From: Halapricum sp.
GTDB taxonomy: Archaea; Halobacteriota; Halobacteria; Halobacteriales; Haloarculaceae
Length of the DNA stretch: 58,521 nt
Assembly (NCBI GenBank): GCA_036628575.1
Contig: JAZKRQ010000001.1
Coordinates: forward strand, 1-58,521
Reading direction: 5' to 3'
Under the pieces are notes generated by a model, which had not been told where the DNA came from, did no database searches, and was given only the letters and a program-made list of their open reading frames with translations. Positions 4,167 to 37,244 of this stretch are shown here, one piece after another. The position numbers and the translations under genes are program-made. The stretch's first letter is position 1. The number at the start of each line of letters is the position of its first letter.

Positions 4167-5114
4167 TCAGCTCAGATGCGGCTCGTTTTCAGGGCTCTCC
4201 AGCAGGTCTCGAACACCCTGTCGAATCGATTCCTCGCTCGACAGCTCGGGTTCCCAGCCCAGCGCGGCGAGTTTCTCGATCGAGAGACGCATCTTGGGGA
4301 CGTCGCCACTCCAGCCGCGATCCCCACCCGTGTATTCGTAGTCGGGATCGACCCCCATCTCTTCGCTGACGATGTCCGCGATACGTGTGACCGATGTCGT
4401 CGAGCGCGTCCCGAGGTTGTAGGTGTTCATCGGCTGGCCGGTATTCTCGACGACATGGGCCATTGCGTCAATACAGTCGTCGATGTACATGTAGGATTTC
4501 TCTTGCCGGCCGTCGCCGAGGATCGTCAGCGAGTCGGGGTCTTGCTGGAGTTTGTAGACGAAGTCGGGAACGACACCTGCGCCGAACCGGGGGCCGACGA
4601 TGTTCGCGAACCGGAAGTTCCACACAGTGAACCCACGCGTGTGGGCGTATACCGACAACAGGGCCTCTTCGGAGAGCTTCGCCGCGCCGTACTCGCTGAT
4701 CGGTTCCAGGGGTGCGTAATCCTCGGGCGTTGGACGTGGGGCCTCACCGTACACTGTCGACGAAGACGTGAAGAGGATATTCTCGACGCCGACATCCGCC
4801 ATTCGTTCGAGGAGGTTGTACGTCATCCCCTCATTCGACTCGAACTGCTCGCGGGGGCGGTCAGCGTTAACATACTTGTCCGCCGCCAGGTGAAACACCG
4901 CGTCGAGGTCTGGGGTGACGATATCCTCGACGATAGCAGGGTCTTCCAGATCGCCCTCGATAAACTCGGCTGCCTCGGGGACCGACTCCCGGATCCCATT
5001 CGAGAGGTCGTCTACCACCACTACATCGTTACCCGGAACGAGCCGTCGTGTCAGTGCGGATCCGATCAACCCGGCACCGCCCGTGACGAGTACACGGCTA
5101 TCAGTGAGTTCCAT
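4167..5114 (-). CDS. galE: NAD-dependent epimerase, probable UDP-glucose 4-epimerase (copy 1)
   Basis: GGAGLIG Rossmann motif, TSSSTVYG, YGAAK; clustered with galT and galK; start set by match to copy 2 (MELTD). Confidence 0.85.
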   Translation of the reverse strand: MELTDSRVLVTGGAGLIGSALTRRLVPGNDVVVVDDLSNGIRESVPEAAEFIEGDLEDPAIVEDIVTPDLDAVFHLAADKYVNADRPREQFESNEGMTYNLLERMADVGVENILFTSSSTVYGEAPRPTPEDYAPLEPISEYGAAKLSEEALLSVYAHTRGFTVWNFRFANIVGPRFGAGVVPDFVYKLQQDPDSLTILGDGRQEKSYMYIDDCIDAMAHVVENTGQPMNTYNLGTRSTTSVTRIADIVSEEMGVDPDYEYTGGDRGWSGDVPKMRLSIEKLAALGWEPELSSEESIRQGVRDLLESPENEPHLS

Positions 5115-5215
5115 ACACCCGCCGAATCGGAGTAATAGTATATAAATGCATTGGTGTCTTGGGACAGTGTGTCCAACAGGCTGCCAACGGAACACCGGCA
5201 TGGCCGATACAGTAT

Positions 5216-5232
5216 ATTCATAATATATGAAC
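5216..5232. promoter_or_regulatory. Candidate operator in the galE / uORF-galT divergent region
   Basis: attca-taatata-tgaac. Confidence 0.5.
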
Positions 5233-5345
5233 AAGGGCGGAAGATGAGTCCGAAAACATGAGTCCGGCGCATCGGGGGATTTCCGGGCGAGTTGATGGGC
5301 GAAACCCAAAAATATACCACTAAGGAATGATACTCATCTAGGTGT

Positions 5346-5483
5346 ATGCACAAGCGCGAGTTGGCGAATCACAACGACAAGTACGTGATTTTCTTCGAGT
5401 TCGACGACGAATCGGATAGCCTGGCGACTGTCGACGATCCAGTGGCCGAGAAGAGAAACGAGCAGCCGATAGTAGAGGAATAG
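5346..5483 (+). CDS. Conserved 45-aa small protein upstream of galT (not in ORF track)
   Basis: MHKRELANHNDKYVIFFEFDDESDSLATVDDPVAEKRNEQPIVEE*; stop ends 1 nt before the galT ATG; paralogue at 33974-34087. Confidence 0.75.
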   Translation: MHKRELANHNDKYVIFFEFDDESDSLATVDDPVAEKRNEQPIVEE

Positions 5484-5484
5484 T

Positions 5485-6477
5485 ATGACTGAGCGACGCT
5501 GGGACCCGACGCGACAGGAGTGGATCGTTACGGCGACGCACCGCCAGGAGCGGACGTTCAAACCGCCGAAGGACTACTGTCCGTTTTGCCCCACCGAAGA
5601 GGGTGCGGAGTATCCGACGGCGATTCCCGACACGGAATACGACATGGTCGTCGTCGAGAACGGATTCCCCTCGCTCCAGCCCGACCCGCCGGAACCCGCC
5701 GTCGAGGGGAGCGATCTCTACCCGGTCGACGAAGCCGACGGCCAGTGTGAAGTCGTCCTCTTCACCGAGGACCACGACGGGACGATGTCGACCGAGCCGG
5801 TCAGTCGTTTCGTCAAGCTGGTCAAACTCTGGCGGGATCGCTACGAGTCGCTGGGCACGATCGACGATCACGAGTACGTCTACATCTTCGAGAACAAGGG
5901 CGAGGAAGTCGGCGTCACGCTGCATCACCCCCACGGCCAGATTTACGCCTATCCGTTCGTCCCGCCGACGGTGAAAAAGGAGCTCGAATCCAGCCAACAG
6001 CACCTGCGAGAACACGGCCAGTGTCTGTTCTGCGACATCGTCGACGAGGAAATATCAGATGGGGAACGCGTCGTCGCGCAGAACGACTCGTTCACTGCGG
6101 TCGTCCCCTACTTCGCGCGGTGGGCCTACGAGGTCCACGTCTATGCGAACGACCATCTCCCGTCGCTCGCTGCCTTCGACGAGACACACGAGCGGGCACT
6201 CGGTTCGATCCTCAAGGAAGTCCTCGTCGCCTACGACGGGCTGTTCGACGACGAGATGCCGTACGTGATGGGTATGCATCAGCAACCGACCGACGGCACC
6301 GGCGAAGAGTACGCGCACTTCCACATAGAGTTCTATCCGCCCAGGCGGACCGCGGACAAGCTCAAGCACTTGGCGGGAAGCGAACTCGGTGCCGGCACCT
6401 ACATCAACAACAAACTGGCCGAGGAATCGGCAGCGGAACTCCGCGAAAGCCTCGACGCAGCGAAAGAACGACTGTAG
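5485..6477 (+). CDS. galT: Galactose-1-phosphate uridylyltransferase (copy 1)
   Basis: RRWDP N-terminus, CPFCP, FENKG, catalytic HPHGQ, CLFC, GSELGAG. Confidence 0.95.
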   Translation: MTERRWDPTRQEWIVTATHRQERTFKPPKDYCPFCPTEEGAEYPTAIPDTEYDMVVVENGFPSLQPDPPEPAVEGSDLYPVDEADGQCEVVLFTEDHDGTMSTEPVSRFVKLVKLWRDRYESLGTIDDHEYVYIFENKGEEVGVTLHHPHGQIYAYPFVPPTVKKELESSQQHLREHGQCLFCDIVDEEISDGERVVAQNDSFTAVVPYFARWAYEVHVYANDHLPSLAAFDETHERALGSILKEVLVAYDGLFDDEMPYVMGMHQQPTDGTGEEYAHFHIEFYPPRRTADKLKHLAGSELGAGTYINNKLAEESAAELRESLDAAKERL

Positions 6478-6778: not shown

Positions 6779-7858
6779 ATGCGCACCGAACACGACTACC
6801 GTGTGGTTTCTCCGGGCCGCGTGAACCTCATCGGCGAACACACAGACTACACCGGCGGTCACGTGCTACCGATGGCGACGGATCTACACACACGACTGGA
6901 CGCGACCCCTGCCGAAGACGTGACCGTTCGATCGGCGGCGTTCGAAGAGGAGCTATCGTTCAGCATGAGCGAACGAAAGCGCAACGACGACTGGACCGAC
7001 TACGTCAAGGGCTGTTATGCGGTGCTCGACGAGGAGGGGTACCGGCCCGGAGGCTTCGATGGAGTCCTCTCCGGAGATCTCCCACTCGGGTCGGGCCTGA
7101 GTTCCTCTGCAAGTCTCGAACTGGCGATCATGGCCTTTCTGAATGACGCCTACGATCTCGGGCTTTCGAGAGAGCGCATGGCGGAGCTGAGCCAGCGCGT
7201 CGAGAACGACTTCGTCGGCGTGTCCTGTGGGATCATGGATCAGTTCGCCGTCGCGCTGGGTCAGGACGGACACGCGCTCCGGATCGACACCGGGACCCTG
7301 GAATACGAGTCGGTGGCGTTCCCCGAGGACGTCCAGGTGGTCGTCTACCACACCGGCGTCGAGCGGGAACTGGTCGATTCGGAGTACAATCAGCGACGGG
7401 AGACCGTCGAATCGGCACTCTCGACGCTAGAAGTCGGTTCCTCGAAGGAGATCACAGAAGACGATCTCGCAGCATTGCCGGACCTCCAGCGTCAGCGCCT
7501 CGGATACGTGGCTCGCGAGAACGAGCGCGTGCGTCGCGCGACGGCGGCACTCGAAGACGGCGACATCGAAACGTTCGGCGAGTTACTCCACAAGGCTCAT
7601 CGCGACATCGCCGAGAACTACGAGGCCAGTTGTGAGGAGTTAGACTTCGTCGTCGAGACCGCTGTCGAACACGGCGCCTACGGCGCACGGCTCACCGGGG
7701 CTGGCTGGGGCGGTGCGTCGATCGCGTTGGTCGACGCAGCCGAAGCGTCGTCGTTCGCGCGATCGCTACACAAGACCTATCAAGATCACTTCCCAGAGCA
7801 CGACCCGCACTTCCATTTGATCACGCCTTCGGCAGGCGTAAACGTCTCCAGGATCTGA
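6779..7858 (+). CDS. galK: Galactokinase (copy 1)
   Basis: PGRVNLIGEHTDY, PLGSGLSSSA, CGIMDQ, GARLTGAGWGG; TATTTAAAA about 25 nt upstream of ATG 6779. Confidence 0.95.
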   Translation: MRTEHDYRVVSPGRVNLIGEHTDYTGGHVLPMATDLHTRLDATPAEDVTVRSAAFEEELSFSMSERKRNDDWTDYVKGCYAVLDEEGYRPGGFDGVLSGDLPLGSGLSSSASLELAIMAFLNDAYDLGLSRERMAELSQRVENDFVGVSCGIMDQFAVALGQDGHALRIDTGTLEYESVAFPEDVQVVVYHTGVERELVDSEYNQRRETVESALSTLEVGSSKEITEDDLAALPDLQRQRLGYVARENERVRRATAALEDGDIETFGELLHKAHRDIAENYEASCEELDFVVETAVEHGAYGARLTGAGWGGASIALVDAAEASSFARSLHKTYQDHFPEHDPHFHLITPSAGVNVSRI

Positions 7859-7861: not shown

Positions 7862-9856
7862 TCAGCGCTGGCCGACAGTGACATCCGCGAGTCCGCACTC
7901 GACGACACCCACGTCGTAAGCATCAACAGTGCTATCGCCGACGACCCAGGTCGCGTCGGTCGGCGCGTCGACCGCGAGCGCGGCCCCGGTAAAGTTCGTT
8001 ACCCAGGCGTACCCGTCACGGGCTGCGATGCGGACGCCGTCCGGAAGCGGTTCGTGATAGGTGACGCCGGCCCGATCGAGGAGACCTGCAGTGACCGCGT
8101 TCGCGAGTTCCCGTCCGGGCCAGACGCCACAGTACGTGACAGCTCCGTCACCGTGTTCGGCGTCGACAATCGCCGGCCGTCCGGACCCCGGGCCGCGCTC
8201 GTAGCGGCCGCCGACAGCGGCGTCGTCGGCCTTGAGCCACTCGGCCCACGTCCGGTAGTCGTAGATCTCGCCGTCGTAGGTGACGCGCGTCTCGACCTGC
8301 TGAGGAGTGGTCTCATGCTGGTCGACGGTTGCACCGACGAGCGGGGCCAGCGGCCCGGGCTGGAGGGTATCCGGCAACTGGTTGTATGGATTCTTCTCGC
8401 CGGTACGAGCGCCCAACAGCAGCTGTCCACCGCGTTCGACATAGTCTTCTATATGTGTGGCCAGATCGTCGTCGACCAGATACAGCGACGGAGCGACGAC
8501 GGCCGCGTACCCGTCGAGATCACGTTCCGGTGGGACGACATCGACCTGTACCCCCCGACGGCGGAGCGCGCGGTAATACGTGCCAACGTGGGCCCAATAG
8601 TCGAAGTCCGGGGCGTGGGGCTGAATCTCGGTCGCCCAGAGGTTCTCATAGCTGTGAAGCAGAGCGACCGGAGCGTCGACGGGGGCGAGCTCGAACAGCT
8701 CCTCTGCGGCGTCCGCTGCCTCTGCATAGCCGCGATCCGGCGAGCCATCCTGTTTCCGCAGGCCAGCGTGGTACTGTTCCTGTCCCTGCCGACAGCGCCG
8801 CCAGCGAAAGTACAGCACCGCGTCGCCACCGTGGGCCACTGCGTGGTGGGCCCACAGTCGCATCGCCCCGTCTGCGGGCTGTGGCGCGTACGGTGGCCAG
8901 TTGACGTCGCCCGGCTGTTGCTCCATCACCCAGAACGGCTGTTCGAGCGCGCCACGGTAGATATCGTGGTTGAGTCCGACCTGATCGGGATCGCCCGCCC
9001 GGAGTTCCGCAACCGTCGGCTCCTCCTCGCGGCGGTCCTGGACGAACCCAGTCGGGTAAGAGTCCCAGGCAACGAGATCAAGGTCCGCAGCCACGTCGTA
9101 AGCATCGAGCGACGAGAAGTGGCCCATGAAGTTGTGGGTCACGAACCACTCCGGGTTCGCGTCCCGGAGTATCTCAGTCTGTGAACGATTGTATGCAACG
9201 ACGCTATGGCTAGCGAATCGGTAGTACTCCAGTAGCCGAGACGGGTGGTGTTCGGCAGTGGTGTGTCGCGGCGGATCGACGGCCTCGAAGTCCGGGTACT
9301 GCTGACTCCAGAAGGTTGTCCCCCATTTCTCGTTGAGATCGTCGATGTCCTCGTATCGCCCACGGAGCCACTCGCGGAAAGAGTTCGCACAGTCGTCACA
9401 GTAACACCGGACTGTGTCGTGACAGCCGTACTCGTTGTCGGTCTGCCAGCCCGCGACGTGCGGGTTGTCGGCATAGTGTTCGGCCATCCGGGAAACGACC
9501 CGTCGGCTCTCCTCGCGATAGGCCGGGGAGTTGAAACAGTAGTGCCGGCGACTACCGAAGTGACGGGTGGTTCCGTCGGGTTCCTCTTGTAAGATCGCGG
9601 GACGGTCATCGACGAGCCACTTCGGCGGCGTCGCCGTTGGGGTACAGAGGATGACCTCCATGCCCTGATCGCCGATCAACTCGATCGCTTCGTCGAGCCA
9701 CTCGAACTCGAAGCGGCCGCGCTCGGGTTCGAGTCGGGCCCAGGAGAACTCCGCCATGCGGACGTACTCCAGACCGGCCGCAGCCATCTGTTCGACGTCG
9801 CGCTCCCAGCGGTCGTGCGGCCAGTGTTCGGGGAAATAACAGACTCCGACTGACAT
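7862..9856 (-). CDS. bgaH: Beta-galactosidase, GH42 (BgaH-like)
   Basis: GVCYFPEHW, AEFSWARLEP, TPTATPPKW, WQTDNEYGC, WVMEQQPG; no signal peptide. Confidence 0.93.
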   Translation of the reverse strand: MSVGVCYFPEHWPHDRWERDVEQMAAAGLEYVRMAEFSWARLEPERGRFEFEWLDEAIELIGDQGMEVILCTPTATPPKWLVDDRPAILQEEPDGTTRHFGSRRHYCFNSPAYREESRRVVSRMAEHYADNPHVAGWQTDNEYGCHDTVRCYCDDCANSFREWLRGRYEDIDDLNEKWGTTFWSQQYPDFEAVDPPRHTTAEHHPSRLLEYYRFASHSVVAYNRSQTEILRDANPEWFVTHNFMGHFSSLDAYDVAADLDLVAWDSYPTGFVQDRREEEPTVAELRAGDPDQVGLNHDIYRGALEQPFWVMEQQPGDVNWPPYAPQPADGAMRLWAHHAVAHGGDAVLYFRWRRCRQGQEQYHAGLRKQDGSPDRGYAEAADAAEELFELAPVDAPVALLHSYENLWATEIQPHAPDFDYWAHVGTYYRALRRRGVQVDVVPPERDLDGYAAVVAPSLYLVDDDLATHIEDYVERGGQLLLGARTGEKNPYNQLPDTLQPGPLAPLVGATVDQHETTPQQVETRVTYDGEIYDYRTWAEWLKADDAAVGGRYERGPGSGRPAIVDAEHGDGAVTYCGVWPGRELANAVTAGLLDRAGVTYHEPLPDGVRIAARDGYAWVTNFTGAALAVDAPTDATWVVGDSTVDAYDVGVVECGLADVTVGQR

Positions 9857-9917: not shown

Positions 9918-10814
9918 CTAGTTCCCCTTCATGCCGCCGCTAGCTAAGCCTTCGACGACCCACTTCTGGGCGACGGCGAACAACAGAATGACGGGAGCCA
10001 TCGTGATGACCGCCGCGGCGATCAGCAGGTTCCACGCGACGGTGTTCTGCGCCTGGAACAGTTGCAACCCGAACGGTAACGTCCGGGTCGCGGCGGTCTG
10101 AGAGAGCATTGATACCAGCAGGTAATCGTTCCACGACAAAATAAACGTGTAGAAGCCAGCAACGGCGATCCCCGGCATCGCCAGCGGGACGATGACCCGT
10201 CGCAAGATACTCAGGTGCGAACAGCCGTCCATCTTCGCGGCCTCGTCGAGCGAATCGGGGATGTCGTCGATGTAGCCCTTCAGCAGCCACGTGCCGAGAG
10301 GGATACCGATCACAGCGTGTGCAACGACGATCCCGAGCAGTGAATCGACGAGGTCCAGCGAGTTCATCAGGAGGTAAAACGGAATCAAGATGAGGACGAG
10401 CGGGAGCATCTGCGTTGAGAGGAACGCGTACAGCAGCCCACCGCGTCCTGGATAGTCGAAGCGACTCATCGAGTACCCAGCCAGGACCCCGACAGTCAAT
10501 ACCAGCAGCGTCGTCGCGGTGGCTACGATCATCGAGTTCTTGAAGTACGTCCGGAAGTCCCCGCGTGAGAGGACCGTCTCGTAGTTGTACAGCGTCAGAT
10601 CACCGAGCGAGGGGAGCAGATCCGACGAGAAGAGGAATTCCTGGCTGGTGAACGAGACGAGAACCATATAGACGACCGGAAGCAGCAGGAACGCGAAGTA
10701 CAGGCCTAACAAGAGATACACGGCCAGGGCACGGCGCGGCGACATGTCCTCGTCTAACCACGCGTCGATTCGCTGGGAGAGATTGCGGTCTTCGGAATCT
10801 GTGCTGGTTGCCAT
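9918..10814 (-). CDS. Carbohydrate ABC transporter permease (MalG-like)
   Basis: EAAKMDG loop, FILSWNDY, multiple TM segments. Confidence 0.92.
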   Translation of the reverse strand: MATSTDSEDRNLSQRIDAWLDEDMSPRRALAVYLLLGLYFAFLLLPVVYMVLVSFTSQEFLFSSDLLPSLGDLTLYNYETVLSRGDFRTYFKNSMIVATATTLLVLTVGVLAGYSMSRFDYPGRGGLLYAFLSTQMLPLVLILIPFYLLMNSLDLVDSLLGIVVAHAVIGIPLGTWLLKGYIDDIPDSLDEAAKMDGCSHLSILRRVIVPLAMPGIAVAGFYTFILSWNDYLLVSMLSQTAATRTLPFGLQLFQAQNTVAWNLLIAAAVITMAPVILLFAVAQKWVVEGLASGGMKGN

Positions 10815-10815
10815 G

Positions 10816-11730
10816 TTAATCGACCTCCTCAAGTTTGACGTAGACGACCGTGAACGTGAGCATGAGGATCAACATCACGGCACCGATGCTGGCACCGTAC
10901 CCGAGCGCGTATTGCTCGAAGGCCTGCTTGTAGACGTAGGTGGCCAGCACCTCGGTGTTCCCCAGCGGTCCGCCGCCGGTCGAGAGGTAGACGATGTCGA
11001 AGTTCTTGAACGTGAACGTGACGTGCAGCACGATCATGATCATCGACACGTAGGAGATCTGGGGCAGCGTGATGTACCGAAACCGTTCGAGCGGGCCGGC
11101 ACCATCCAGTCGTGCGGCCTCGTACTGTTCTTTCGGGATGGATTGCATCGCCGCGAGCAATGAGATCGCGTAGAACGGGACGTTCCGCCAGACGTGCATC
11201 ACGACGATCAGCGGAAACGCAACGCCCGGTTCGCCGAACCAGTACGTCGTGCGCATCCCGAGGTTTTTGAGGATGATATTGACCGGGCCGAACCCGTTCT
11301 GGACCATAAAGCGGAAAATGATGACCATCACGATGATCGGCATCACCCAGGTAACCATAGAGAGGCTCCGGAAAATCCCGGCCCCGGGGACCTTCTCTTT
11401 CAGCGCCAGCGCGAGGCCGAGTCCCAGAAGGTACTGGAACGAGACGGCCAGCGCGGTCAGCAGGACCGTATGCCATAGCGCAGTTTTGAATATCGGATCA
11501 CCGGCGAGAGCGGCGAAGTTCTCCAGACCGACGAACTCCATCTGCTCCGGATTCAGCAACGATGCTTCGAAAAAAGCCAGGTAGAGCCCACGGAGCGTGG
11601 GATAGCCGATGATGACAGCGAGGATGATAGTCGCCGGAATGACGAAGGCGTAACCGAGCCACGTGTCTGAGAAAAACGACGAGAACTCCTCCCTGTATCG
11701 GCTGAAACTCGATTCTGTCTGCGTTGCCAT
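10816..11730 (-). CDS. Carbohydrate ABC transporter permease (MalF-like)
   Basis: FVGLENF, EAARLDGA, TGGGP. Confidence 0.92.
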   Translation of the reverse strand: MATQTESSFSRYREEFSSFFSDTWLGYAFVIPATIILAVIIGYPTLRGLYLAFFEASLLNPEQMEFVGLENFAALAGDPIFKTALWHTVLLTALAVSFQYLLGLGLALALKEKVPGAGIFRSLSMVTWVMPIIVMVIIFRFMVQNGFGPVNIILKNLGMRTTYWFGEPGVAFPLIVVMHVWRNVPFYAISLLAAMQSIPKEQYEAARLDGAGPLERFRYITLPQISYVSMIMIVLHVTFTFKNFDIVYLSTGGGPLGNTEVLATYVYKQAFEQYALGYGASIGAVMLILMLTFTVVYVKLEEVD

Positions 11731-11740
11731 ATGAGAGAGA

Positions 11741-13135: not shown

Positions 13136-13220
13136 AGTCAATACCTACTGGGGCCATGAATCCCCTACTATTTATAATTTTCCTAAATCTCTATCAGGAT
13201 ATTCCACAGAGCGGGCGCGC

Positions 13221-17222: not shown

Positions 17223-17239
17223 ATTCATGTATTATGAAC
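17223..17239. promoter_or_regulatory. Candidate operator upstream of IclR-1
   Basis: attca-tgtatta-tgaac. Confidence 0.5.
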
Positions 17240-24063: not shown

Positions 24064-25209
<1,146 letters not shown>

Positions 25210-25324
25210 GGGGAAACAGATGTGATTGGACCATACACAAATATAAATGTAATGGTTCTATTTGTACCCCATATAATAGGATATATGGGAAAAGATTAAG
25301 TTCTTCTATATCACACGACTATCT

Positions 25325-26629: not shown

Positions 26630-26630
26630 G

Positions 26631-29237: not shown

Positions 29238-30293
29238 ATGATAGATACGAACGACAGATGGACCGCTGAGGAAGCATGGGACTGGTATGACGACCAGGAT
29301 TGGCTGGTCGGGTGTAACTACGTCCCGAGCACCGCTGTCAATCCGACAGGGATGTGGCAGGCCGAGACGTTCGATCGCGAAACGATCGACCGAGAACTCG
29401 GCTGGGCCGCGGACCTCTCGATGAACACGCTCCGGGTTTTTCTCCAGTACGTCGTCTGGGAGGCCGACCCGGAGGGTCTCAAAGAGCGAATGGACCGTTT
29501 TCTCGACATCGCGGACAGGCACGGAATGACGACGATGTTCGTCTTCTTCGACGATGTCGCGTTCTCGGGGAAGGAACCGTACACCGGCCCACAAGACGAC
29601 CCAATACCGGAGACACACAACAGCCAGTGGACGCCCAGTCCGGGCCACGATATCGCCACCGAACCGGACCGATGGGACGGCCCCCGTGAGTACGTCCGCG
29701 ACATCGTCTCGACGTTCCGTGACGACGGCCGGGTACTCATGTGGGACGTCTACAACGAACCCGGAAACAGCGATATGGACCAGCAGACGCTCCCTTTACT
29801 CCGCGAATCGTTCGACTGGGTGCGTGCCGAAGACCCCGAACAGCCAGTCACGGCAGGTGTCAACTGGGATCCGGATCGCGAGAAACAGAACCGGATCGGC
29901 TCCGAGAACGCCGACGTAATCTCGTTTCACGACTATTCAGAGCTGTCGTTCACGAAAGAGCGCGTCGAGCGCATGCAAGAGCGGTACGGAAGGCCGCTTC
30001 TCTGTACCGAGTGGATGGCCCGCCCGCGTGACAACACGGTTGAGACACATCTCCCGTACTTCCGAAACGAAGAGATCGGTTGTTACACGTGGGGGCTAGT
30101 GAACGGCAAGACGCAGACGCATCTCCCCTGGTCGACTGCTCAGACGTCTATCGCTGAAGCCATCGACGAAGAGGAAACCGACGTTTGGTTCCACGACCTC
30201 CTGCACGGAGACGGGACGCCTTACAGACAATCAGAGGTCGAATCGTTGGAGCAGATAATCGACGACCAACAGGAGCAGAGACAGGAATTGTAA
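29238..30293 (+). CDS. GH5-like glycoside hydrolase (resembles subfamily 13)
   Basis: RWTAEEAWDWY, GCNYVPSTAVN, WDVYNEP (acid/base), CTEWMAR (nucleophile), WGLVNGKTQT. Confidence 0.8.
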   Translation: MIDTNDRWTAEEAWDWYDDQDWLVGCNYVPSTAVNPTGMWQAETFDRETIDRELGWAADLSMNTLRVFLQYVVWEADPEGLKERMDRFLDIADRHGMTTMFVFFDDVAFSGKEPYTGPQDDPIPETHNSQWTPSPGHDIATEPDRWDGPREYVRDIVSTFRDDGRVLMWDVYNEPGNSDMDQQTLPLLRESFDWVRAEDPEQPVTAGVNWDPDREKQNRIGSENADVISFHDYSELSFTKERVERMQERYGRPLLCTEWMARPRDNTVETHLPYFRNEEIGCYTWGLVNGKTQTHLPWSTAQTSIAEAIDEEETDVWFHDLLHGDGTPYRQSEVESLEQIIDDQQEQRQEL

Positions 30294-30360: not shown

Positions 30361-32994
30361 ATGAAGCACACAGAACAAGCGATACCACAGAACACGAGAG
30401 AATCGAAGAGTTTGAACGACCAGTGGACGTTCCGGATCGATCCGGAAAGCAACGGTAACAAGGACGAGTGGTACGACCCGGCGACGGACTGGGACGATAC
30501 GCGCACGGTTTCCGTTCCCCACTCCTGGCAAGAACACGAAGACCTCCGTACGTACACTGGGACGGCCTGGTATCGTACGACGTTTACCTTCGACAGTCTC
30601 GAAGACGGACAGCAAGCGTTGCTGTCCTTCGGTGCGGTCGACTACGAGACGACGGTCTGGGTCAACGGCCAGCGCGTCGGCGAGCACCGCGGTGGCTATC
30701 TCCCGTTTACTGTCGACGCGACCACAGCTATCGAACCCGGGGAGAATACCGTCGCCATTCGCGTTCACGATCCCGAAGATATCTCCGAGATCCCACACGG
30801 CAAACAGGGTGCAGAATGGTACACCCGGGTCAGTGGCCCCTGGCAGGGCATCGACCTCGTAGTCGTTCCGGAAGTCCGGGTAAACGACCTTCGGGTGACC
30901 CCCGATCTCGACTCCGGTACCGCAGACGTAGCCATCTCCGTGTCCCGGGATACGCGATCGTTCACAGCAACGGTGCGTATCTCGCGCGACGGATCCGTCG
31001 TCTCGGAGACTTCCGCGACAGTCCAGGACGGGACGGTCGAAGAATCGGTATCGATTCCCGATCCCGACTACTGGACACCTGAAACCCCCGATCTCTACGA
31101 TATCGAGGTGACGCTCTCGGACGGAGAAGACGCCCTCGATTCCTACGAGACGTACTTCGGAATGCGGAGCGTCGCGTACGACGACGGCCAGCTCTATCTC
31201 AACGGCGAGCCGTTCGAGATGCGTGGAGCGCTCGATCAGGCGTTCTATCCGGATACGTACTACCGGCCGGCCGACATCGAGACGTTCGAGGAGGAGATCC
31301 GCGCGGCCAAAGAGCTGGGATTCAACCTCCTGCGCAAGCATATCAAGCCGGCCCATCCCGAGTTCGTCGAACTCGCGGACCGCCTTGGCATCCTCGTGTG
31401 GGAAGAGCCAGCTAATCCCGATCGATACACCGATCGCTCGAAGGGAGAACTCCGCGAACAGCTGTTCGGCATGATCGACCGCGACTACAACAACCCGAGC
31501 GTGATCGCGTGGTCGATCTACAACGAGGAATGGGGTATCGGATACCACGAGGAAGAAGCATCGCTCTGGGAGGATCCCGAAAAGCAAGACTACCTCGAAT
31601 CGCTCTATCACGACGTCCGCGAATACGATCCCACGCGGCTGGTCTGTGACAATTCCGGCTGGGCGCACGTCGCGACCGATCTCAACGACTATCACGAGTA
31701 TTTCGTCGTTCCCGACCGCCGCGACGCCTGGCGCGACCGGCTTGAGGAGATCACATCGAATCCGAGCGATAACTACGGCGATGTCCGGACGGATCCGGAC
31801 GAAGCGCCGCTGCTCGTTTCGGAATTCGGAACCTGGGGGTTGGGTGACATCGAGGCGCTGTACGATCACTACGACGGCACGCCCCACTGGTTCGAGCACG
31901 ACTTCCTCAGCGGGCTGAAACGGCCCGGCGATCCCAAGGCGAAGTTCGAAGCGAGTCCCGCTTCGTCGGTGTTCGATTCGCTATCGGAACTGGCGACGGC
32001 CTGGCAGCGCCGCGAGTTTCAGAGCGTCGAGTCGATTATCGCCGACATGCGGGTTGAGGACGACGTGGCGGGATACGTTATCACAGAATTATCCGATATC
32101 GAGTGGGAATTCAACGGCCTCCTCGATTATCTCCGTTCGGAGAAGGCGTTCTACGAGTCGTTTGCCCGCGTGAACGCCCCAATGATGGTACATCTCGAAC
32201 CGTCGACCCACACTGCCTGGAGTGGCGACGAGATCGACGTCGACCTCGTACTTGCGAACGACCGCAGCAGTAAACAGTCACTCTCAGTAACTCTCTCAGC
32301 GGCCGGAGCGGAAACGACGGTGGACGTGACCGTGCCGTCACACGACACTGTCCGGGTGAAAGAGGCGATGACTTTCGTCGCTCCCGACGTCGCAGAGCTT
32401 TCGCCAGTCGATATTACCGCAGTGTCGTCCAACGTAGAACGATCGGTCACACGTGCGGTCTATGTCGCCCCCGACGATCGACGGAGCGAACGGATTGCTG
32501 TCTACACAGACAACGACGCACTCGCCACGGCGCTTGTTAGCCGGGGGTACGAAGTTCTCGACGATCCTGACACAGCCGCGGTCTCGGTCGTGACCGACCC
32601 GACCGGCGTCAGTGGACCCGCACTCGTGCTCCCCGAAGCAGACGGATACCTCACAGATACCGACCGTTTCGAGTATCGAGAGCTCCCGGAACGGGAAAGC
32701 TGGAACCTGTGTGCTTCGTTCGTCTATCAGGACCTCTTCGAGACGGTCGACGTGACGCCCGGCTGGGCGTTCGAGGACCTCTATCCATACGGCTACGTCA
32801 CGAACGTCTCGACCCGCGACGACGTTCTCGTCGGATACACAGAGGGATGGCTGGAGAACGGCGGTGCAATCACGGCCGTCCAGTCGACGCCCGATGGGGA
32901 CATCGGGGTCTGTACCCTCCGGGTAACTGACGTGTACGGAGAACATCCCGTTGGAACGGCCGTCGTCGACGAGCTCCTGTCCCGGCTCAAATAA
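30361..32994 (+). CDS. Glycoside hydrolase family 2 (paralogue 2)
   Basis: Same motifs as 19747-22419 (FGAVDYETTVWVNG, PHGKQ, YNEEWG, VSEFG). Confidence 0.88.
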   Translation: MKHTEQAIPQNTRESKSLNDQWTFRIDPESNGNKDEWYDPATDWDDTRTVSVPHSWQEHEDLRTYTGTAWYRTTFTFDSLEDGQQALLSFGAVDYETTVWVNGQRVGEHRGGYLPFTVDATTAIEPGENTVAIRVHDPEDISEIPHGKQGAEWYTRVSGPWQGIDLVVVPEVRVNDLRVTPDLDSGTADVAISVSRDTRSFTATVRISRDGSVVSETSATVQDGTVEESVSIPDPDYWTPETPDLYDIEVTLSDGEDALDSYETYFGMRSVAYDDGQLYLNGEPFEMRGALDQAFYPDTYYRPADIETFEEEIRAAKELGFNLLRKHIKPAHPEFVELADRLGILVWEEPANPDRYTDRSKGELREQLFGMIDRDYNNPSVIAWSIYNEEWGIGYHEEEASLWEDPEKQDYLESLYHDVREYDPTRLVCDNSGWAHVATDLNDYHEYFVVPDRRDAWRDRLEEITSNPSDNYGDVRTDPDEAPLLVSEFGTWGLGDIEALYDHYDGTPHWFEHDFLSGLKRPGDPKAKFEASPASSVFDSLSELATAWQRREFQSVESIIADMRVEDDVAGYVITELSDIEWEFNGLLDYLRSEKAFYESFARVNAPMMVHLEPSTHTAWSGDEIDVDLVLANDRSSKQSLSVTLSAAGAETTVDVTVPSHDTVRVKEAMTFVAPDVAELSPVDITAVSSNVERSVTRAVYVAPDDRRSERIAVYTDNDALATALVSRGYEVLDDPDTAAVSVVTDPTGVSGPALVLPEADGYLTDTDRFEYRELPERESWNLCASFVYQDLFETVDVTPGWAFEDLYPYGYVTNVSTRDDVLVGYTEGWLENGGAITAVQSTPDGDIGVCTLRVTDVYGEHPVGTAVVDELLSRLK

Positions 32995-33006: not shown

Positions 33007-33981
33007 TCAAATAGCGTCCCGGAGTTCCGCGGCCGACTCCTCGGCGAGCTTGTTGTTGATGTAGGTGCCGGCCCCGAGTTCGCTCCCGGCGAGGTGCTTG
33101 AGCTTGTCTTCGGTCCTGTATGGCGGATAGAACTCCATGTGGAAGTGGCTGTATTCGCTTTCGTCCGCCTCGCCCGTCGGCTCCTGGTGCATGGCCATAA
33201 CGTATGGCATCTCGAAGTCGAATAGCGCGTCGTAGCGCTGCTGTACCTCTTTGAGCAGCTGACCGAGCTGTTGTTCGTGAGTGTTATCGAACGCCGCGAG
33301 CGACGGGAGATGATCGTTCGCGTAGACGTGGACCTCGTACGCCCATCGCGCGAAATACGGCACGACTGCAGTAAAAGCGTCGTTTTCGGCGACCACACGC
33401 TCACTCGTGTCCCGCTCTTCGGTCACAAGGTCACAGAACAGACAGCGTCCGTGTTCGTCGAGGTGGTCCCGGCTCGATTGGAGCTCTGTCCGGACCTTCG
33501 GCGGGACGAACGGGTAGGCGTAGATCTGGCCGTGGGGATGGTGCAGCGTGACGCCGACGTCTTCGCCGCGGTTCTCGAAGATGTAGACGTACTCGTGGTC
33601 GGCCTTCTCGCCGAGGGTCTCGTAGCGGTCCCGCCAGAGCTTCACGAGCTTGACGAACCGCGAGACCGGCTCCTGGGACATCGTGCCGTCGTGCTCGGGG
33701 GTGAACAGGACGACCTCGCACTGGCCGTTGGCCGGTTCGGCGGGGAGGAGGTCAGACCCCTCGATGGCGGGTTCGGGCGGATCGGGCTGCAGCGACGGGA
33801 ACCCGTTCTCGACGACGGCCATGTCGTAGTCCGGTTCGGGGATCGCCGTCGGGTACTCCGCGCCCTCCTCGGTCGGGCAGAACGGACAGTAGTCCTCCGG
33901 CGGTTTGAACGTCCGTTCCTGGCGATGGGTCGCCGTGATAACCCACTCCTGGAGCGTCGGATCCCAGCGCCGTTCAGTCAT
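33007..33981 (-). CDS. galT: Galactose-1-phosphate uridylyltransferase (copy 2)
   Basis: MTERRWDP start matching copy 1; HPHGQ; GSELGAG. Confidence 0.95.
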   Translation of the reverse strand: MTERRWDPTLQEWVITATHRQERTFKPPEDYCPFCPTEEGAEYPTAIPEPDYDMAVVENGFPSLQPDPPEPAIEGSDLLPAEPANGQCEVVLFTPEHDGTMSQEPVSRFVKLVKLWRDRYETLGEKADHEYVYIFENRGEDVGVTLHHPHGQIYAYPFVPPKVRTELQSSRDHLDEHGRCLFCDLVTEERDTSERVVAENDAFTAVVPYFARWAYEVHVYANDHLPSLAAFDNTHEQQLGQLLKEVQQRYDALFDFEMPYVMAMHQEPTGEADESEYSHFHMEFYPPYRTEDKLKHLAGSELGAGTYINNKLAEESAAELRDAI

Positions 33982-34087
33982 CGTCCCCCTCCGACTGTCC
34001 GTCGACTGCCGCCAACTCGTCCGATTCGTCGAACTTGAAGAGTACGACGTACTTGTCGTTGTGATTGCGAACGCGTCGCTTTTGCAT
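33974..34087 (-). CDS. Conserved 37-aa small protein upstream of galT (not in ORF track)
   Basis: MQKRRVRNHNDKYVVLFKFDESDELAAVDGQSEGDDD*; overlaps the galT start by 8 nt. Confidence 0.75.
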   Translation of the reverse strand: MQKRRVRNHNDKYVVLFKFDESDELAAVDGQSEGDDD

Positions 34088-34180: not shown

Positions 34181-35131
34181 ATGGAACTCACTGACAAACT
34201 GATTCTGGTGACAGGCGGCGCTGGGTTGATCGGTGCGCCGCTGGCCGAGCGACTGGTCGCGGACAACGACGTCGTCGTCGTCGACGACCTCTCGAACGGG
34301 ATTCGCGAGTCCGTTCCCGAGCAAGCGGCGTTCGTCGAGGGCGACCTGACCGATCCCGAGGTCGTCGCTGACGTGGTAACGAGCGACCTGGATGCAGTGT
34401 TTCATCTGGCGGCGGACAAGTACGTCAACGCCGAACGGCCGCGCGAGCAGTTCGAATCCAACGAGGCGATGACCTACAACTTGCTTGAGCGCATGGAGGA
34501 GGTCGGCGTCGAGAACGTGCTGTTCACCTCTTCCTCGACGGTCTACGGCGAGGCACCGCGGCCGACGCCCGAGGATTACGCGCCCCTGGAGCCGATCAGC
34601 GAATACGGTGCGGCGAAACTCGCCGAAGAAGGCCTGGTTTCAGTGTACGCGCACACGCGGGGGTTCACGGTGTGGAACTTCCGGTTCGCCAACATCGTCG
34701 GGCCGCGCTATGGCGCTGGGGTCGTGCCGGACTTCGTCTACAAACTCCAGGAGGATCCCGACTCGCTGACGATCCTGGGCGACGGCCGCCAGGAGAAATC
34801 CTACATGTACATTGACGACTGCATCGATGCGATGTGCCACGTCGTCGAACACGCCGACGAGCCGATGAACACCTACAACCTGGGAACGCGGACGACGACG
34901 TCGGTCACACGGATCGCGGACATCGTCAGCGACGAACTGGGCGTCGATCCCGAGTACGAATACACGGGCGGCGACCGCGGCTGGGAGGGCGACGTGCCAA
35001 AGATGCGCCTCTCGATCGAGAAACTGGCTGCCCTGGGCTGGGAACCGACACTCTCCAGCGACGACACCATCCGCCAGGGCGTGCGTGACCTGCTCGAACG
35101 CCCCGAGAACGAGCCTCACCTGAGTGGCTGA
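34181..35131 (+). CDS. galE: NAD-dependent epimerase, probable UDP-glucose 4-epimerase (copy 2)
   Basis: GGAGLIG, YGAAK; very similar to 4167-5114. Confidence 0.85.
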   Translation: MELTDKLILVTGGAGLIGAPLAERLVADNDVVVVDDLSNGIRESVPEQAAFVEGDLTDPEVVADVVTSDLDAVFHLAADKYVNAERPREQFESNEAMTYNLLERMEEVGVENVLFTSSSTVYGEAPRPTPEDYAPLEPISEYGAAKLAEEGLVSVYAHTRGFTVWNFRFANIVGPRYGAGVVPDFVYKLQEDPDSLTILGDGRQEKSYMYIDDCIDAMCHVVEHADEPMNTYNLGTRTTTSVTRIADIVSDELGVDPEYEYTGGDRGWEGDVPKMRLSIEKLAALGWEPTLSSDDTIRQGVRDLLERPENEPHLSG

Positions 35132-36220
35132 TCACGCCGTGCGGTCGACAGCGACCCCGCCCGAGGGGGAGACCAGGAAAAACCGCGAGTCGTGCTCGGG
35201 ATACTGCTGTTCGTATCGTTCGTGAACGGCATTGGCGATGCGTTCTGCCCGTGATCGATCGACGAGTGCGACAGCGGCACCTCCCCAGCCGGCACCGGTT
35301 AGTCGTGCTCCGTAAGCCCCTTCGTCTACGGCCACGTCGACGAAAAAGTCCAGTTCCTCACAGCTCGCTTCGTAATTGGTTGCGATGTCTTCGTGCGCGG
35401 TTACGAGGAGTTCCCCGACACGCTCAACGTCACCTTCGGACAGTGCTGCCGTCGCCTCCTGTACGCGTTCGTTCTCGCGATGGACGAATCCGAGTCGTCG
35501 ACGCTGACGATCGGAGAGCGTTTCCAGATCCCCTGGATCCACGTCTTTCGAAGTGTCGGCGTTCAGGGCGTCCAGTCCGGCCTCCACGGTCCCACGACGA
35601 TGATTGTACTCCGAGTCGACCAACGCACGTTCGACGCCGGTATGGTAAACGAGTATCTGCACCTCGTCGGGAACCGGCACGTGATCGTACTGGAGTGTCT
35701 CGGTGTCGAGATGGAGCGCGTGGTTCGCTCTCGTGAGCGCGACGGCGAATTGATCCATGATGCCACAGGAGACACCGACGAAGTCGTTTTCCACTCGCTG
35801 TCCCAGCAGTGCTAACCGCTCGCGCGAAAGACCGAGGTCATACGCGTCGTTCAAGAACCCGAGAACTGCCAGTTCGAGGCTCGCCGAGGAACTCAGGCCA
35901 GACCCAAGTGGTAACGTACCAGAGATCTTTCCGCGGAAACCGCCTGGAGCGTATCCCTCTTTACGAAGAACGGCGTAGCAGCCTTTTAGATAATCAGCCC
36001 AGTCGCTCGTTCGCGTCGTATCGTCTACAGTGAAGGTCCGCTGTTCGTCGAACGCGGCTGAGGTGACTGTCACCGTCTCGTCATCAGTCGGTGCGGCACG
36101 TAATTCTGTGTGGAGATCGGTCGCGACGGGCAAGACATATCCGCCCGAGTAATCCGTGTGTTCGCCGATCAGATTTACCCTGCCCGGTGAAATTACATGA
36201 TATGCATACTCCTCGTTCAT
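35132..36220 (-). CDS. galK: Galactokinase (copy 2)
   Basis: PGRVNLIGEHTDY, GSGLSSSA, CGIMDQ, GARLTGAGWGG. Confidence 0.95.
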   Translation of the reverse strand: MNEEYAYHVISPGRVNLIGEHTDYSGGYVLPVATDLHTELRAAPTDDETVTVTSAAFDEQRTFTVDDTTRTSDWADYLKGCYAVLRKEGYAPGGFRGKISGTLPLGSGLSSSASLELAVLGFLNDAYDLGLSRERLALLGQRVENDFVGVSCGIMDQFAVALTRANHALHLDTETLQYDHVPVPDEVQILVYHTGVERALVDSEYNHRRGTVEAGLDALNADTSKDVDPGDLETLSDRQRRRLGFVHRENERVQEATAALSEGDVERVGELLVTAHEDIATNYEASCEELDFFVDVAVDEGAYGARLTGAGWGGAAVALVDRSRAERIANAVHERYEQQYPEHDSRFFLVSPSGGVAVDRTA

Positions 36221-36374
36221 GATCAGTATCGGGTTGCTGTTCACAACGATAGAATAAAAATATTTTGTCGTTTCTAACCAGGCTGAGTTTATTTTGGTAG
36301 TCATCAAAAGGTGCTATCATTGCCGCGCCGTCCACCACAATCGGTTTGTATCCAGAGAGAGATGCATACTGACA

Positions 36375-37244
36375 ATGTGTGCTGTATCCATTACCGAGAT
36401 TGACGACCCGGAGTGGGGAAATTGCGTACAGCTGGCAAACGGAACTGTCCGGGCCCGGGTAGCGACCGAGGTCGGCCCACGAGTGCTCCATTTCGGGTTC
36501 GAAGACGGGGCAAACGAGTTTCGCACGTATCCCGAGGAGCGCGACGGGTTCCCGCTATATGGTGGTCACCGACTCTGGCACGCACCGGAGAAGCAGTCCC
36601 GCACGCACGTGCCCGATGACTCGCCCATCGAGTACGAAATCCAGAACGGATCCGTTTCCGTTACCCGGGATACTGATCCCGGATCGTCTTTGCGCCGCGA
36701 ACTCGAACTCCAGCTGTCGCCGTCCCGACCGTCGATGACGGTCACACATCGCATTTACAACGAAGGTGCCTGGCCCGTCGAGTTCGCTCCATGGGGACTC
36801 ACGGTACTGAAGGCCGGCGGAACCGCCGTATTGCCCTTCGACCGACAGGAGCCGGCGGACTCCGTGCAACCCGATCGGTCCGTCCAGTTCTGGCCATACA
36901 CCAATCCCGGGGACGACCGCCTTCGCTTCGACCGACGGGCGATCACGGTGCAACAGGACGACGACGCCGACGAACCGCTAAAGATCGGTACCACGACGAG
37001 CGAAGAGTGGACAGCATACATTCGAGACGGCCGCGCGTTCCGCAAGGAAATGTCGATCGATCTTGACGGGACGTATCCCGACGGTGGGAGTGCTGTCGAA
37101 GTCTACACGCGACCCGGATTCCTCGAACTCGAGACGCTCGGACCGCTCGAGACTGTCGAGCCGGGCGGGTGTGCTACGCACACCGAAGAGTGGACGCTCC
37201 TGGACGACGTTTCCGACGTCGACGACCTTGTCGGCGGGACCTGA
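36375..37244 (+). CDS. Uncharacterised protein, probable galactose-mutarotase-like fold (DUF4380-like)
   Basis: VGPRVL, YGGHRLWHAPE, YPDGG, ELETLGPL, HTEEW; divergent from galK. Confidence 0.65.
   Translation: MCAVSITEIDDPEWGNCVQLANGTVRARVATEVGPRVLHFGFEDGANEFRTYPEERDGFPLYGGHRLWHAPEKQSRTHVPDDSPIEYEIQNGSVSVTRDTDPGSSLRRELELQLSPSRPSMTVTHRIYNEGAWPVEFAPWGLTVLKAGGTAVLPFDRQEPADSVQPDRSVQFWPYTNPGDDRLRFDRRAITVQQDDDADEPLKIGTTTSEEWTAYIRDGRAFRKEMSIDLDGTYPDGGSAVEVYTRPGFLELETLGPLETVEPGGCATHTEEWTLLDDVSDVDDLVGGT

What the first reader, a model, noticed from the sequence alone, without database searches (positions are those of the whole stretch)
4167..37244. Haloarchaeal galactoside-utilisation island feeding a duplicated Leloir pathway
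Seen: two galK/galT/galE sets, two ABC importers, two IclRs, GH42, GH27, GH4, two GH2, a GH5-like enzyme and a sulfatase. No galactose dehydrogenase or galactonate dehydratase is in the window. Established: Haloferax volcanii degrades galactose by the oxidative DeLey-Doudoroff route, while Leloir is the bacterial/eukaryotic route. Inference: a little-studied archaeal locus using Leloir, built from two self-contained modules. No phosphoglucomutase is in the window.
Basis: partly seen in the sequence, partly recalled or inferred. Interest (0 to 1): 0.75.

Follow-up and report, generated by a model that had tools for sequence, protein, structure and literature searches.

The report
Leloir galactose route in a haloarchaeon
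A salt-loving archaeon carries two sugar-import and glycosidase gene sets, each joined to the three Leloir genes, where other salt-loving archaea join the same sets to an oxidative route; it likely breaks down galactose the bacterial way, a route predicted for its relatives in 2011.

Summary
The genes are real and as described; a mutarotase-like gene ends the region. GalK and GalT pass family cut-offs; GalE does not and falls among archaeal, Pyrococcus-type 4-epimerases. The host is an 86.5%-complete genome whose nearest named relative is Halapricum desulfuricans. Module 1 (GH42, GH27, GH4, ABC, galE/T/K) is syntenic in 4 of 5 complete congeners. Module 2 (two GH2, GH5-like, ABC) is rare. Main result: both front ends occur in other haloarchaea with DeLey-Doudoroff genes instead (module 2: 6 of 6 loci carry dgoD; module 1: Haloferax alexandrinus), so Leloir has likely replaced that back end. 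This genome and three complete congeners show no glucose dehydrogenase or KDPG aldolase, which fits. This GalT occurs in 9 of 400 Halobacteria genomes. The two gal sets are as diverged as orthologues between species, so not a recent duplication. Leloir in haloarchaea was already predicted (Halorhabdus, 2011, 2014); I found no experimental test. Open leads: module 2 may release galactofuranose; the step after fructose-6-phosphate is unassigned. New member of a known kind; interest 0.4.

The parts
4167..5114 (-). galE1, NDP-sugar 4-epimerase of the archaeal (A. fulgidus / P. horikoshii) subgroup
   Evidence: PF01370; below TIGR01179 cut-off; S/YxxxK motifs; 86% to galE2
5217..5231 (.). palindrome TTCAY-N5-RTGAA, candidate IclR1 operator in the galE1/galT1 gap
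   Evidence: pattern chosen after seeing the window; recurs at matching places in relatives
5346..5483 (+). 45-aa ORF resembling the N-terminal segment of Thermus-type GalT
5485..6477 (+). galT1, type I galactose-1-phosphate nucleotidyltransferase
   Evidence: TIGR00209 205 bits, cut-off 102; HPHGQ aligned to E. coli and P. aerophilum GalT
6779..7858 (+). galK1, galactokinase
   Evidence: TIGR00131 283/227 and NF003006 484/443; best structures Pyrococcus GalK
7862..9856 (-). GH42 beta-galactosidase
   Evidence: PF02449; 61.5% to the H. volcanii pHV4 enzyme
9918..14402 (-). ABC importer 1: two permeases, binding lipoprotein (11741-13141), ATPase
14511..15692 (+). GH27 alpha-galactosidase
   Evidence: PF16499
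15762..17138 (+). GH4 alpha-galactosidase (MelA type)
   Evidence: NF011657 567/486
17224..17354 (.). two further TTCAY-N5-RTGAA sites (17224, 17340) upstream of IclR1
17360..18166 (+). IclR1 regulator
   Evidence: PF09339/PF01614; 34% to H. volcanii GacR-position IclR
18217..19554 (+). sulfatase (CxPxR motif)
   Evidence: PF00884; same position beside melA and IclR in H. alexandrinus
19747..22419 (-). GH2a glycosidase, 45% to GH2b
22573..23418 (+). IclR2 regulator (true start probably near 22618)
   Evidence: 58% to the IclR in DeLey-Doudoroff versions of module 2
24064..28422 (.). ABC importer 2: ATPase (24064-25209, -), binding lipoprotein and two permeases (25325-28422, +)
28419..29096 (+). 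membrane protein conserved in all six other module-2 loci
29238..30293 (+). GH5-like glycosidase (NEP and CTEW motifs); GH5_13 likeness is recalled, not tested
30361..32994 (+). GH2b glycosidase; best solved sequence relative is a beta-D-galactofuranosidase
33007..33981 (-). galT2
   Evidence: TIGR00209 204/102
33971..34087 (-). 38-aa ORF, homologue of the ORF before galT1
34181..35131 (+). galE2
35132..36220 (-). galK2
   Evidence: TIGR00131 272/227, NF003006 463/443
36294..37244 (+). mutarotase-like protein (TTE1925 family, below cut-off; start probably near 36375)
   Evidence: 73% to the gene after the sulfatase in H. desulfuricans plasmid

Best explanation
The region holds two ABC-importer and glycosidase modules, each with its own galK, galT and galE, and these likely degrade the released D-galactose by the Leloir route in place of the DeLey-Doudoroff route that accompanies the same modules in other haloarchaea. 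Inferred steps: ABC1 imports alpha- and beta-galactosides (some probably sulfated) for GH27, GH4, GH42 and the sulfatase; ABC2 imports other galactose-bearing oligosaccharides for two GH2 and a GH5-like enzyme (galactofuranosides are my single most likely class, about 0.45); the mutarotase-like protein supplies alpha-D-galactopyranose; GalK makes Gal-1-P; GalT swaps it with NDP-glucose (UDP assumed); GalE regenerates NDP-glucose; a PGM-family enzyme on another contig and PGI lead to fructose-6-P; entry to fructose-1,6-bisphosphate is unassigned (candidates: the stand-alone PfkB kinase on contig C45, or transketolase/transaldolase on C48). IclR1 probably controls galE1/galT1 through a shared palindrome. 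Shown: gene content, family membership, synteny, distribution. Not shown: any activity, induction or flux.
For: GalK and GalT pass curated cut-offs with intact motifs. Back-end swap: module 2 was read in 6 distinct other loci (5 from 400 genomes by GH5 search, plus one plasmid); all 6 carry dgoD at 72-77% to H. volcanii DgoD inside the cassette, with a dehydrogenase-type gene in all 6 and aldolase plus KDG kinase seen in 2, and none shows galT or galK. Module 1 (melA, IclR, sulfatase, ABC at 60-77%, GH42) sits with dgoD, SDR, kdgK1, eda in H. alexandrinus pBNX82-3. Own genome: no DgoD-family match at 1e-60, no glucose dehydrogenase or KDPG aldolase; the last two are also not found in complete congeners G001, G002, G008. 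PGI, class II FBA, three PGM-family genes and five NTP-transferases are present. Module 1 with galE/T/K is syntenic in G001, G002, G004, G008 and partly G205. Palindrome: 3 exact sites in the window, 0.15 expected, 7 in the genome; conserved by galE and IclR in 4 distinct Leloir loci and by IclR in the DeLey-Doudoroff version.
Against: The genome is 86.5% complete, so absences in it are weak. Five of the nine other galT-bearing genomes encode a DgoD-family protein strong enough to pass NF010624 (best E 1e-151 to 1e-168; the two compared are 54-57% to H. volcanii DgoD), and G004 has a KDG/KDGal kinase next to galE plus glucose dehydrogenase and aldolase, so the routes are not strictly exclusive. 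G000 keeps a KDG-kinase-like gene (C14, below cut-off). GalE fails the GalE cut-off and lacks P80, R83 and H182 of P. horikoshii Gal4E, where H182A cut activity to under 8%. No PGM candidate passes a PGM cut-off and one is GlmM. No 6-phosphofructokinase was identified; both PfkB candidates pass the haloarchaeal 1-phosphofructokinase model. The aldolase searches had no working positive control (G249 was also negative). The palindrome is absent from the G002 stretch (L088) and from galT2/galE2.
Confidence: 0.8

Rival explanations
1. Same gene logic, but the cycle runs on GDP- or ADP-sugars rather than UDP, because the epimerase belongs to the promiscuous GDP-preferring archaeal subgroup.
For: Best solved relatives of galE2 are A. 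fulgidus 3EHE (E 2e-89), P. horikoshii PhGal4E_1 8RDG (4e-82) and P. calidifontis enzymes, described as the GDP-Gal4E subgroup; the loop-G motif GGxRGWxGDV and N174 are kept; GalT has ENGFP where E. coli has TNDFA.
Against: P80, R83, H182 differ; PhGal4E_1 also works on UDP-Glc; closest GalT relatives are bacterial proteins annotated as uridylyltransferases.
Confidence: 0.15
2. The gal genes are a salvage route that feeds NDP-galactose into glycosylation, while galactose carbon is burned by another route.
For: The epimerase family is widespread in haloarchaea at 70-74% identity; galK without galT occurs in 38 of 47 galK-bearing genomes; some galT genomes keep DgoD-like proteins.
Against: The genes sit with importers and hydrolases, and occupy the place that catabolic DeLey-Doudoroff genes hold in homologous clusters; no glycosyltransferase among the 42 ORFs scanned.
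Confidence: 0.08
3. Module 2 releases a sugar other than galactose (glucuronate, galacturonate or L-arabinose), and galT2/galE2/galK2 are unrelated passengers.
For: B. thetaiotaomicron beta-glucuronidase 7XYR scores almost as well as the galactofuranosidase by profile (5.7e-75 against 7.7e-76) and better by fold (rank 9 against 20); GH5_13 includes an arabinofuranosidase.
Against: All 6 other module-2 loci hold a galactonate dehydratase orthologue; here the place is taken by galactose-specific GalK/GalT. Two unrelated galactose routes attached to one front end point to galactose.
Confidence: 0.1
4. The double arrangement is an assembly or binning chimera of two organisms.
For: Metagenome-type assembly in 244 contigs; no listed contig bridges GH2b to galT2 by 31 or more letters; module 2 was found in none of 5 complete congeners.
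Against: One 58.5-kb contig without N; copies are 69-80% identical in DNA; galE2/galT2 are closest to congener genes; runs of two further studies hold 91-94%-identical GH5, GH2b, galT2, galE2, galK2 and mutarotase pieces, one contig spanning GH5-GH2b and one galK2-mutarotase.
Confidence: 0.04

Closest known systems
Leloir pathway predicted for Halorhabdus utahensis (PMC3102087) and H. tiamatea (PMC4257568)
   Same: Same three enzymes inferred from genomes in the same family; same contrast with DeLey-Doudoroff in other haloarchaea.
   Different: Here GalK/T/E are clustered with importers and hydrolases, twice, with a mutarotase-like gene. Huta_2170 was not fetched, so whether it is this GalT family is untested; no H. 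utahensis or H. tiamatea GalT is among the named hits (most hits are unnamed), and 3 of 7 genomes of genus g4 have galK+galE but no PF01087/PF02744 match.
Module 1 on Halapricum desulfuricans plasmid pHSR-Est01 (NZ_CP064792.1)
   Same: Same order SMC-like, galE, galT, galK, GH42, ABC, GH27, melA, IclR, sulfatase at 70-93% identity, already annotated galactokinase/galT.
   Different: No module 2; mutarotase-like gene directly after the sulfatase; one gal set.
DeLey-Doudoroff galactose clusters of Haloferax volcanii pHV4, H. alexandrinus pBNX82-3 and Natronorubrum aibiense plasmid
   Same: Homologous hydrolase, ABC and IclR front ends (H. alexandrinus for module 1, N. aibiense for module 2).
   Different: Back end is galactose dehydrogenase, dgoD, KDGal kinase, aldolase instead of galK/galT/galE.
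Pyrococcus GalK (2CZ9, 1S4E), Pyrobaculum aerophilum GalT (6K5Z), P. horikoshii PhGal4E_1 (8RDG)
   Same: Best solved relatives of the three enzymes.
   Different: GalT is far closer to Halanaerobiales proteins (64-66%); GalE lacks three of four tested PhGal4E_1 residues.
GH2 beta-D-galactofuranosidase ORF1110 of Streptomyces sp. JHA19 (9J6M/9J6N; PMC11627007)
   Same: Best sequence match to GH2b and to a 38-member profile; seven of eight ligand residues have invariant counterparts.
   Different: Low overall identity (27% by structure); Y551 could not be aligned; a beta-glucuronidase shares the residues that could be compared; extra C-terminal domain, no AbfB domain or signal peptide seen.

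Membership tests
Leloir pathway | Galactokinase (GHMP family, galactose-binding signature) | tested here: met
   TIGR00131 283 and 272 bits (cut-off 227), NF003006 484 and 463 (443), PF10509; GRVNLIGEHTDY, PxGxGLSSSA, CGIMDQF
Leloir pathway | Type I GalT with HxHxQ nucleophile motif | tested here: met
   TIGR00209 205 and 204 bits (cut-off 102); HPHGQ aligned. Below the enterobacterial NF008724 cut-off (230/448)
Leloir pathway | UDP-glucose 4-epimerase | tested here: inconclusive
   TIGR01179 not met (127-132/262); catalytic S and YxxxK present; best structures are archaeal Gal4Es
Leloir pathway | Galactose mutarotase | tested here: inconclusive
   Only NF052227 TTE1925-family hit, 250 bits against 550; no Pfam hit
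Leloir pathway | Phosphoglucomutase link to glucose-6-P | tested here: inconclusive
   Three PF02878 genes; one passes archaeal GlmM, two pass no cut-off
Leloir pathway | Flux Gal -> Gal-1-P -> Glc-1-P in vivo | not testable with these tools
   Needs assays or tracing; no RNA holder listed
DeLey-Doudoroff pathway | Galactose dehydrogenase, galactonate dehydratase, KDPGal aldolase orthologues | tested here: not met
   None in window; in the 86.5% genome best hits are 25% (dgoD), 40% over 129 aa (galDH), none (aldolase)
Archaeal GDP-Gal4E subgroup (PhGal4E_1) | Closest sequence relatives; loop-G motif and N174 | tested here: met
Archaeal GDP-Gal4E subgroup (PhGal4E_1) | P80, R83, H182 conserved | tested here: not met
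   K, N and A at these columns; [DE]KYV[ND]x and PR[YF]GAGV in all of the top 52 of 120 homologues
Archaeal GDP-Gal4E subgroup (PhGal4E_1) | Preference for GDP-sugars | not testable with these tools
   Needs enzyme assay
GH2 beta-D-galactofuranosidase (ORF1110 type) | K212, Y228, H401, N463, E464, E530, Y551, E594 | tested here: inconclusive
   Seven map to invariant K148, Y154, H327, N388, E389, E488, E583 of alignment A1 (E488 by motif only); Y551 not alignable; 7XYR glucuronidase also shows the K, Y, H and E594 equivalents
GH2 beta-D-galactofuranosidase (ORF1110 type) | Closest fold | tested here: inconclusive
   Model pLDDT 87; 9J6M rank 20 but highest identity listed (27%); 7XYR rank 9 with TMt 0.83 against 0.75
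GH5 subfamily 13 | Clustering with characterised members (ZP_02065960.1, WP_018627464.1) | not tested
   Reference sequences could not be fetched; the likeness is recalled. Pfam and Atlas give GH5 only
Mobile genomic island | Integrase, tRNA or att site, deviant composition | tested here: not met
   No tRNA, no integrase among 42 ORFs, GC 1.5-3 points below genome

The most novel reading that the evidence does not exclude
Module 2 is an archaeal galactofuranoside-utilisation cassette (two GH2 and one GH5-like galactofuranosidases, an ABC importer and an IclR) that plugs into either galactose back end, and this lineage, having no Entner-Doudoroff enzymes, runs galactose through Leloir and an upper glycolysis that needs a haloarchaeal fructose-6-phosphate step not yet identified.
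Probability: 0.3. Interest if true: 0.65.

Novelty: new member of a known kind. Interest (0 to 1): 0.4.

Why it matters
It turns a 2011 genome prediction into a concrete, testable system: module 1 is intact on replicons of a cultured relative, and the same front ends exist with DeLey-Doudoroff genes in Haloferax, so the two back ends can be compared directly. [quoted passage not shown] If the GH2/GH5 enzymes are galactofuranosidases they would be salt-adapted archaeal examples; the reviewed list I saw has bacterial, fungal and protozoan enzymes only, and one search found no paper with both terms.

Tried and rejected
Recent tandem duplication: rejected. Mobile island hallmarks: not found; repeat scans gave chance-like families apart from candidate operators. 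Bacterial origin of GalT: haloarchaeal-type sequences form one clade (99/97) nested among Halanaerobiales and other bacteria, but the AU test did not reject grouping them with the one other archaeal sequence (p 0.062; long branch), so transfer is suggested, not shown; 26 of 126 rows were used. GalK origin: one search returned unnamed proteins only, the GalK tree was the quick version; no donor assigned. Strict mutual exclusion of galT and dgoD: not supported. Shared operator for module 2 (TTTC-N7-GAAA): 2 sites in the window, 29 in the genome, seen in 2 of 6 distinct homologous loci, dropped. One-mismatch palindrome search was near chance (7 against 3.2). Third galT on C49: the contig ends 63 bases past galE, none found. 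In one search the L131 query was read in the wrong frame and says nothing; searches cover that question. No RNA holder listed. Literature: searches found no paper on Halapricum sugar metabolism (one search was uninformative), so descriptions in subscription journals may already mention these genes; PMC7152746 is not held. No supplements were read; those of PMC12171764 (Figs S5, S19) bear on GDP specificity. Earlier-findings look-ups gave nothing relevant.

Full report
Observation. Both GalK pass TIGR00131 and NF003006, both GalT pass TIGR00209, and catalytic motifs are intact. Both 'GalE' reach under half the TIGR01179 cut-off; their best solved relatives are archaeal 4-epimerases, 3EHE and P. 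horikoshii PhGal4E_1, a GDP-preferring, promiscuous subgroup (PMC12171764; parts 1, 3 and 5 of 8 and passages read). They keep loop G and N174 but not P80, R83 or H182; the replacements are fixed in the top 52 of 120 homologues, so they mark a subfamily rather than decay. The last ORF is mutarotase-like, below cut-off. No DeLey-Doudoroff gene or phosphoglucomutase is in the window.

Host. The window is contig C1 of a 2.65-Mb, 244-contig assembly, 86.5% complete. Nearest named relatives are Halapricum desulfuricans (GalT 83%, GH42 79%, binding protein 89%) and Halorhabdus (GalT 78%). The genome has two more galK (C49, beside a third galE at a contig end; C81, below cut-off) but only the two galT.

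Distribution. In 400 Halobacteria genomes at least 90% complete, this GalT is found in 9: own genus 5 of 5, genus g4 4 of 7. Named hits add Halosimplex sp. TS25 and Halomontanus rarus, so it is not confined to two genera. GalK-family genes are in 47 of 400; the non-g1/g4 ones sampled fall in a separate clade (quick tree). DgoD-family proteins pass the cut-off in 240 of 401. So DeLey-Doudoroff-type genes are common and Leloir is rare.

Module 1 is a genus-level cluster. SMC-like, galE, galT, galK, GH42, ABC, GH27, GH4 are syntenic in G001, G002, G004 and G008 (4 of 5 complete congeners; G003 has galT-galK beside a different ABC set) and partly in G205; IclR and sulfatase follow where the fetched stretch reached them (G001, G008). 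NCBI already annotates it on H. desulfuricans pHSR-Est01. In Haloferax alexandrinus pBNX82-3, melA, IclR, sulfatase, the ABC set (60-77%) and GH42 lie with dgoD, an SDR, kdgK1 and eda instead.

Module 2 is rare. The GH5-like gene is in 5 of 400 genomes, none in the host's family. I read six distinct loci (those five, one also held as the N. aibiense plasmid, and a Natrinema gelatinilyticum plasmid). All six have the same ABC set, membrane protein, one or two GH2 and the GH5, and all six hold dgoD at 72-77% to H. volcanii DgoD plus a Gfo- or SDR-type dehydrogenase; none shows galK or galT. In the window galT2/galE2/galK2 take that place. Two unrelated galactose routes on the same front end is the best evidence that galactose is the product and that the gal genes are catabolic (inference).

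Why Leloir here. The genome has no glucose dehydrogenase, DgoD/gluconate-dehydratase-class enzyme or KDPG aldolase by family and by tblastn; glucose dehydrogenase and aldolase were also not found in complete G001, G002, G008, whereas G003 and G004 have both. It has PGI, class II FBA, two haloarchaeal 1-phosphofructokinase-family kinases (C16 in a PTS/FBA cluster, C45 alone), transketolase/transaldolase (absent from 4 of 4 congeners tested), three PGM-family genes and five NTP-transferases. A hexose-phosphate route fits that set. Against: incompleteness; five of nine galT genomes have a DgoD-family paralogue strong enough to pass cut-off; G004 has a KDG/KDGal kinase beside galE; one search lacked a working positive control. 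The step from fructose-6-P onward is unassigned, as PMC3102087 noted for H. utahensis (passages).

Relation of the two sets. Amino-acid identity is 86% (GalE), 81% (GalT), 66% (GalK); four-fold-site distances are 0.54, 0.35, 0.59, in the range seen between this genome and H. desulfuricans (0.27-0.63). GalT2 and GalE2 are closer to the H. desulfuricans genes (88%, 93%) than GalT1 and GalE1 are (82%, 84%), while GalK1 is the closer kinase (76% against 68%). The sets are old paralogues or separate acquisitions, mosaic in detail. In H. desulfuricans pHSR-Est01 the mutarotase-like gene follows the sulfatase, suggesting module 2 entered between them; in G001 an IclR follows the sulfatase, so this rests on one case. 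Runs from two further studies hold 91-94%-identical pieces of GH5, GH2b, galT2, galE2, galK2 and the mutarotase gene; no listed contig bridges GH2b to galT2.

Substrates. Module 1: alpha- and beta-galactosides by family (GH27, GH4, GH42); the conserved sulfatase suggests sulfated ones (inference). Module 2: the best sequence match in the PDB is Streptomyces beta-D-galactofuranosidase ORF1110; seven of its eight ligand residues (PMC11627007, parts 2-3 of 4 read) have invariant counterparts in 38 aligned family members (38 chosen from the window pair and 120 listed hits). But a beta-glucuronidase (7XYR) scores nearly the same, shares the residues I could compare, and ranks higher by fold. The GH5-like protein resembles GH5_13 from recall only; that subfamily has galactofuranosidases and an arabinofuranosidase (passages of PMC6442616, PMC12290620, PMC10115798). 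I put galactofuranosides at about 0.45. Both binding proteins have twin-arginine lipoprotein-like N-termini; the hydrolases checked by a simple motif (not the GH2s) do not, consistent with cytoplasmic hydrolysis.

Regulation. TTCAY-N5-RTGAA occurs three times in the window (0.15 expected; 7 in the genome): in the galE1/galT1 gap and twice before IclR1. The pattern was chosen from the window, but it recurs by galE and IclR in L085, L090, L091/L127 and L096, and before the IclR of the DeLey-Doudoroff version (L126); it is missing in L088. Haloarchaeal sugar IclRs such as GacR are activators (PMC10838023 passages).

Origin. GalT's nearest non-haloarchaeal named relatives are Halanaerobiales (64-66%) and the haloarchaeal-type clade nests among bacteria, but the AU test was not significant (p 0.062). 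GalE comes from a family widespread in haloarchaea; GalK's best structures are Pyrococcus enzymes. The pathway looks assembled from mixed sources (inference).

What is known. Leloir was predicted for H. utahensis (PMC3102087, passages) and H. tiamatea (PMC4257568, passages), and for Tardisphaera among other archaea (PMC12542729, passages). DeLey-Doudoroff in H. volcanii is cited from PMC10838023; the primary 2020 paper was not read. Searches showed no experimental test of haloarchaeal Leloir, and no paper joining galactofuranosidase and haloarchaea; subscription journals are not covered.

Verdict. Real, coherent and probably catabolic Leloir (0.8). A new member of a known kind, with an interchangeable back end and two testable leads (galactofuranosidases; the missing fructose-6-P step). 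Interest 0.4.

Noticed in passing
window 5346-5483 (+) and 33971-34087 (-): A 38-45 aa ORF with NHN[DE][KR]YV sits directly before both galT and before galT in 9 related loci; looser versions precede galT in L089 and L025. It resembles the N-terminal segment fused to Thermus GalT, so GalT may be split into two chains.
   Followed up: partly
window 1364-3978; L085, L088, L090, L091, L095-L099: An archaea-specific SMC-like gene, often with rdfA, flanks galE/galT/galK in most relatives, and also lies near module 2 in L130. Reason unknown.
   Followed up: no
G011, G124, G138 (L092-L094): Three genomes of genus g4 have adjacent galK and galE but no PF01087 or PF02744 match, so they lack this GalT or use another transferase.
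   Followed up: partly
L033 14239-16282 (G000 C49); L034 7146-8213 (G000 C81): The C49 galK-galE pair groups with G410 in both trees (transfer or bin contamination); the C81 galK is a solo copy below cut-off, related to a decayed-looking copy in G001.
   Followed up: partly
L090 794-7740; L085 16751-20000; L087 514-2879: Next to module 1 in congeners lies a second operon with a DgoD-like dehydratase (54-57% to H. volcanii), IclR, and genes resembling a sugar kinase, class II aldolase and dehydrogenases; G004 adds a KDG/KDGal kinase. Substrate unknown.
   Followed up: partly
G000 C48 11266-13839 (L180): Transketolase halves and a transaldolase-like gene are in this genome, while transketolase was not found in four complete congeners.
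   Followed up: no
window 41641-41726, 44359-44446, 45176-45267: Three related ~86-bp partly palindromic intergenic elements (74-87% identical), MITE-like.
   Followed up: no
window 41883-44346, 45552-50246, 54432-55388: Cytochrome bd oxidase, a brp/crtI/bat-like group and an LDH-family gene lie in the right flank, fitting a microaerobic or fermentative haloarchaeon.
   Followed up: no
window 22526-22587 and 23508-23528: Inverted repeat between GH2a and IclR2 and a similar site after IclR2, possible IclR2 operators; weak support in relatives.
   Followed up: partly
L109 7998-10547: A 41%-identical GH5 homologue with an MFS transporter and LacI regulator lies among IS elements on E. coli IncF plasmids (17 Escherichia records).
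   Followed up: no
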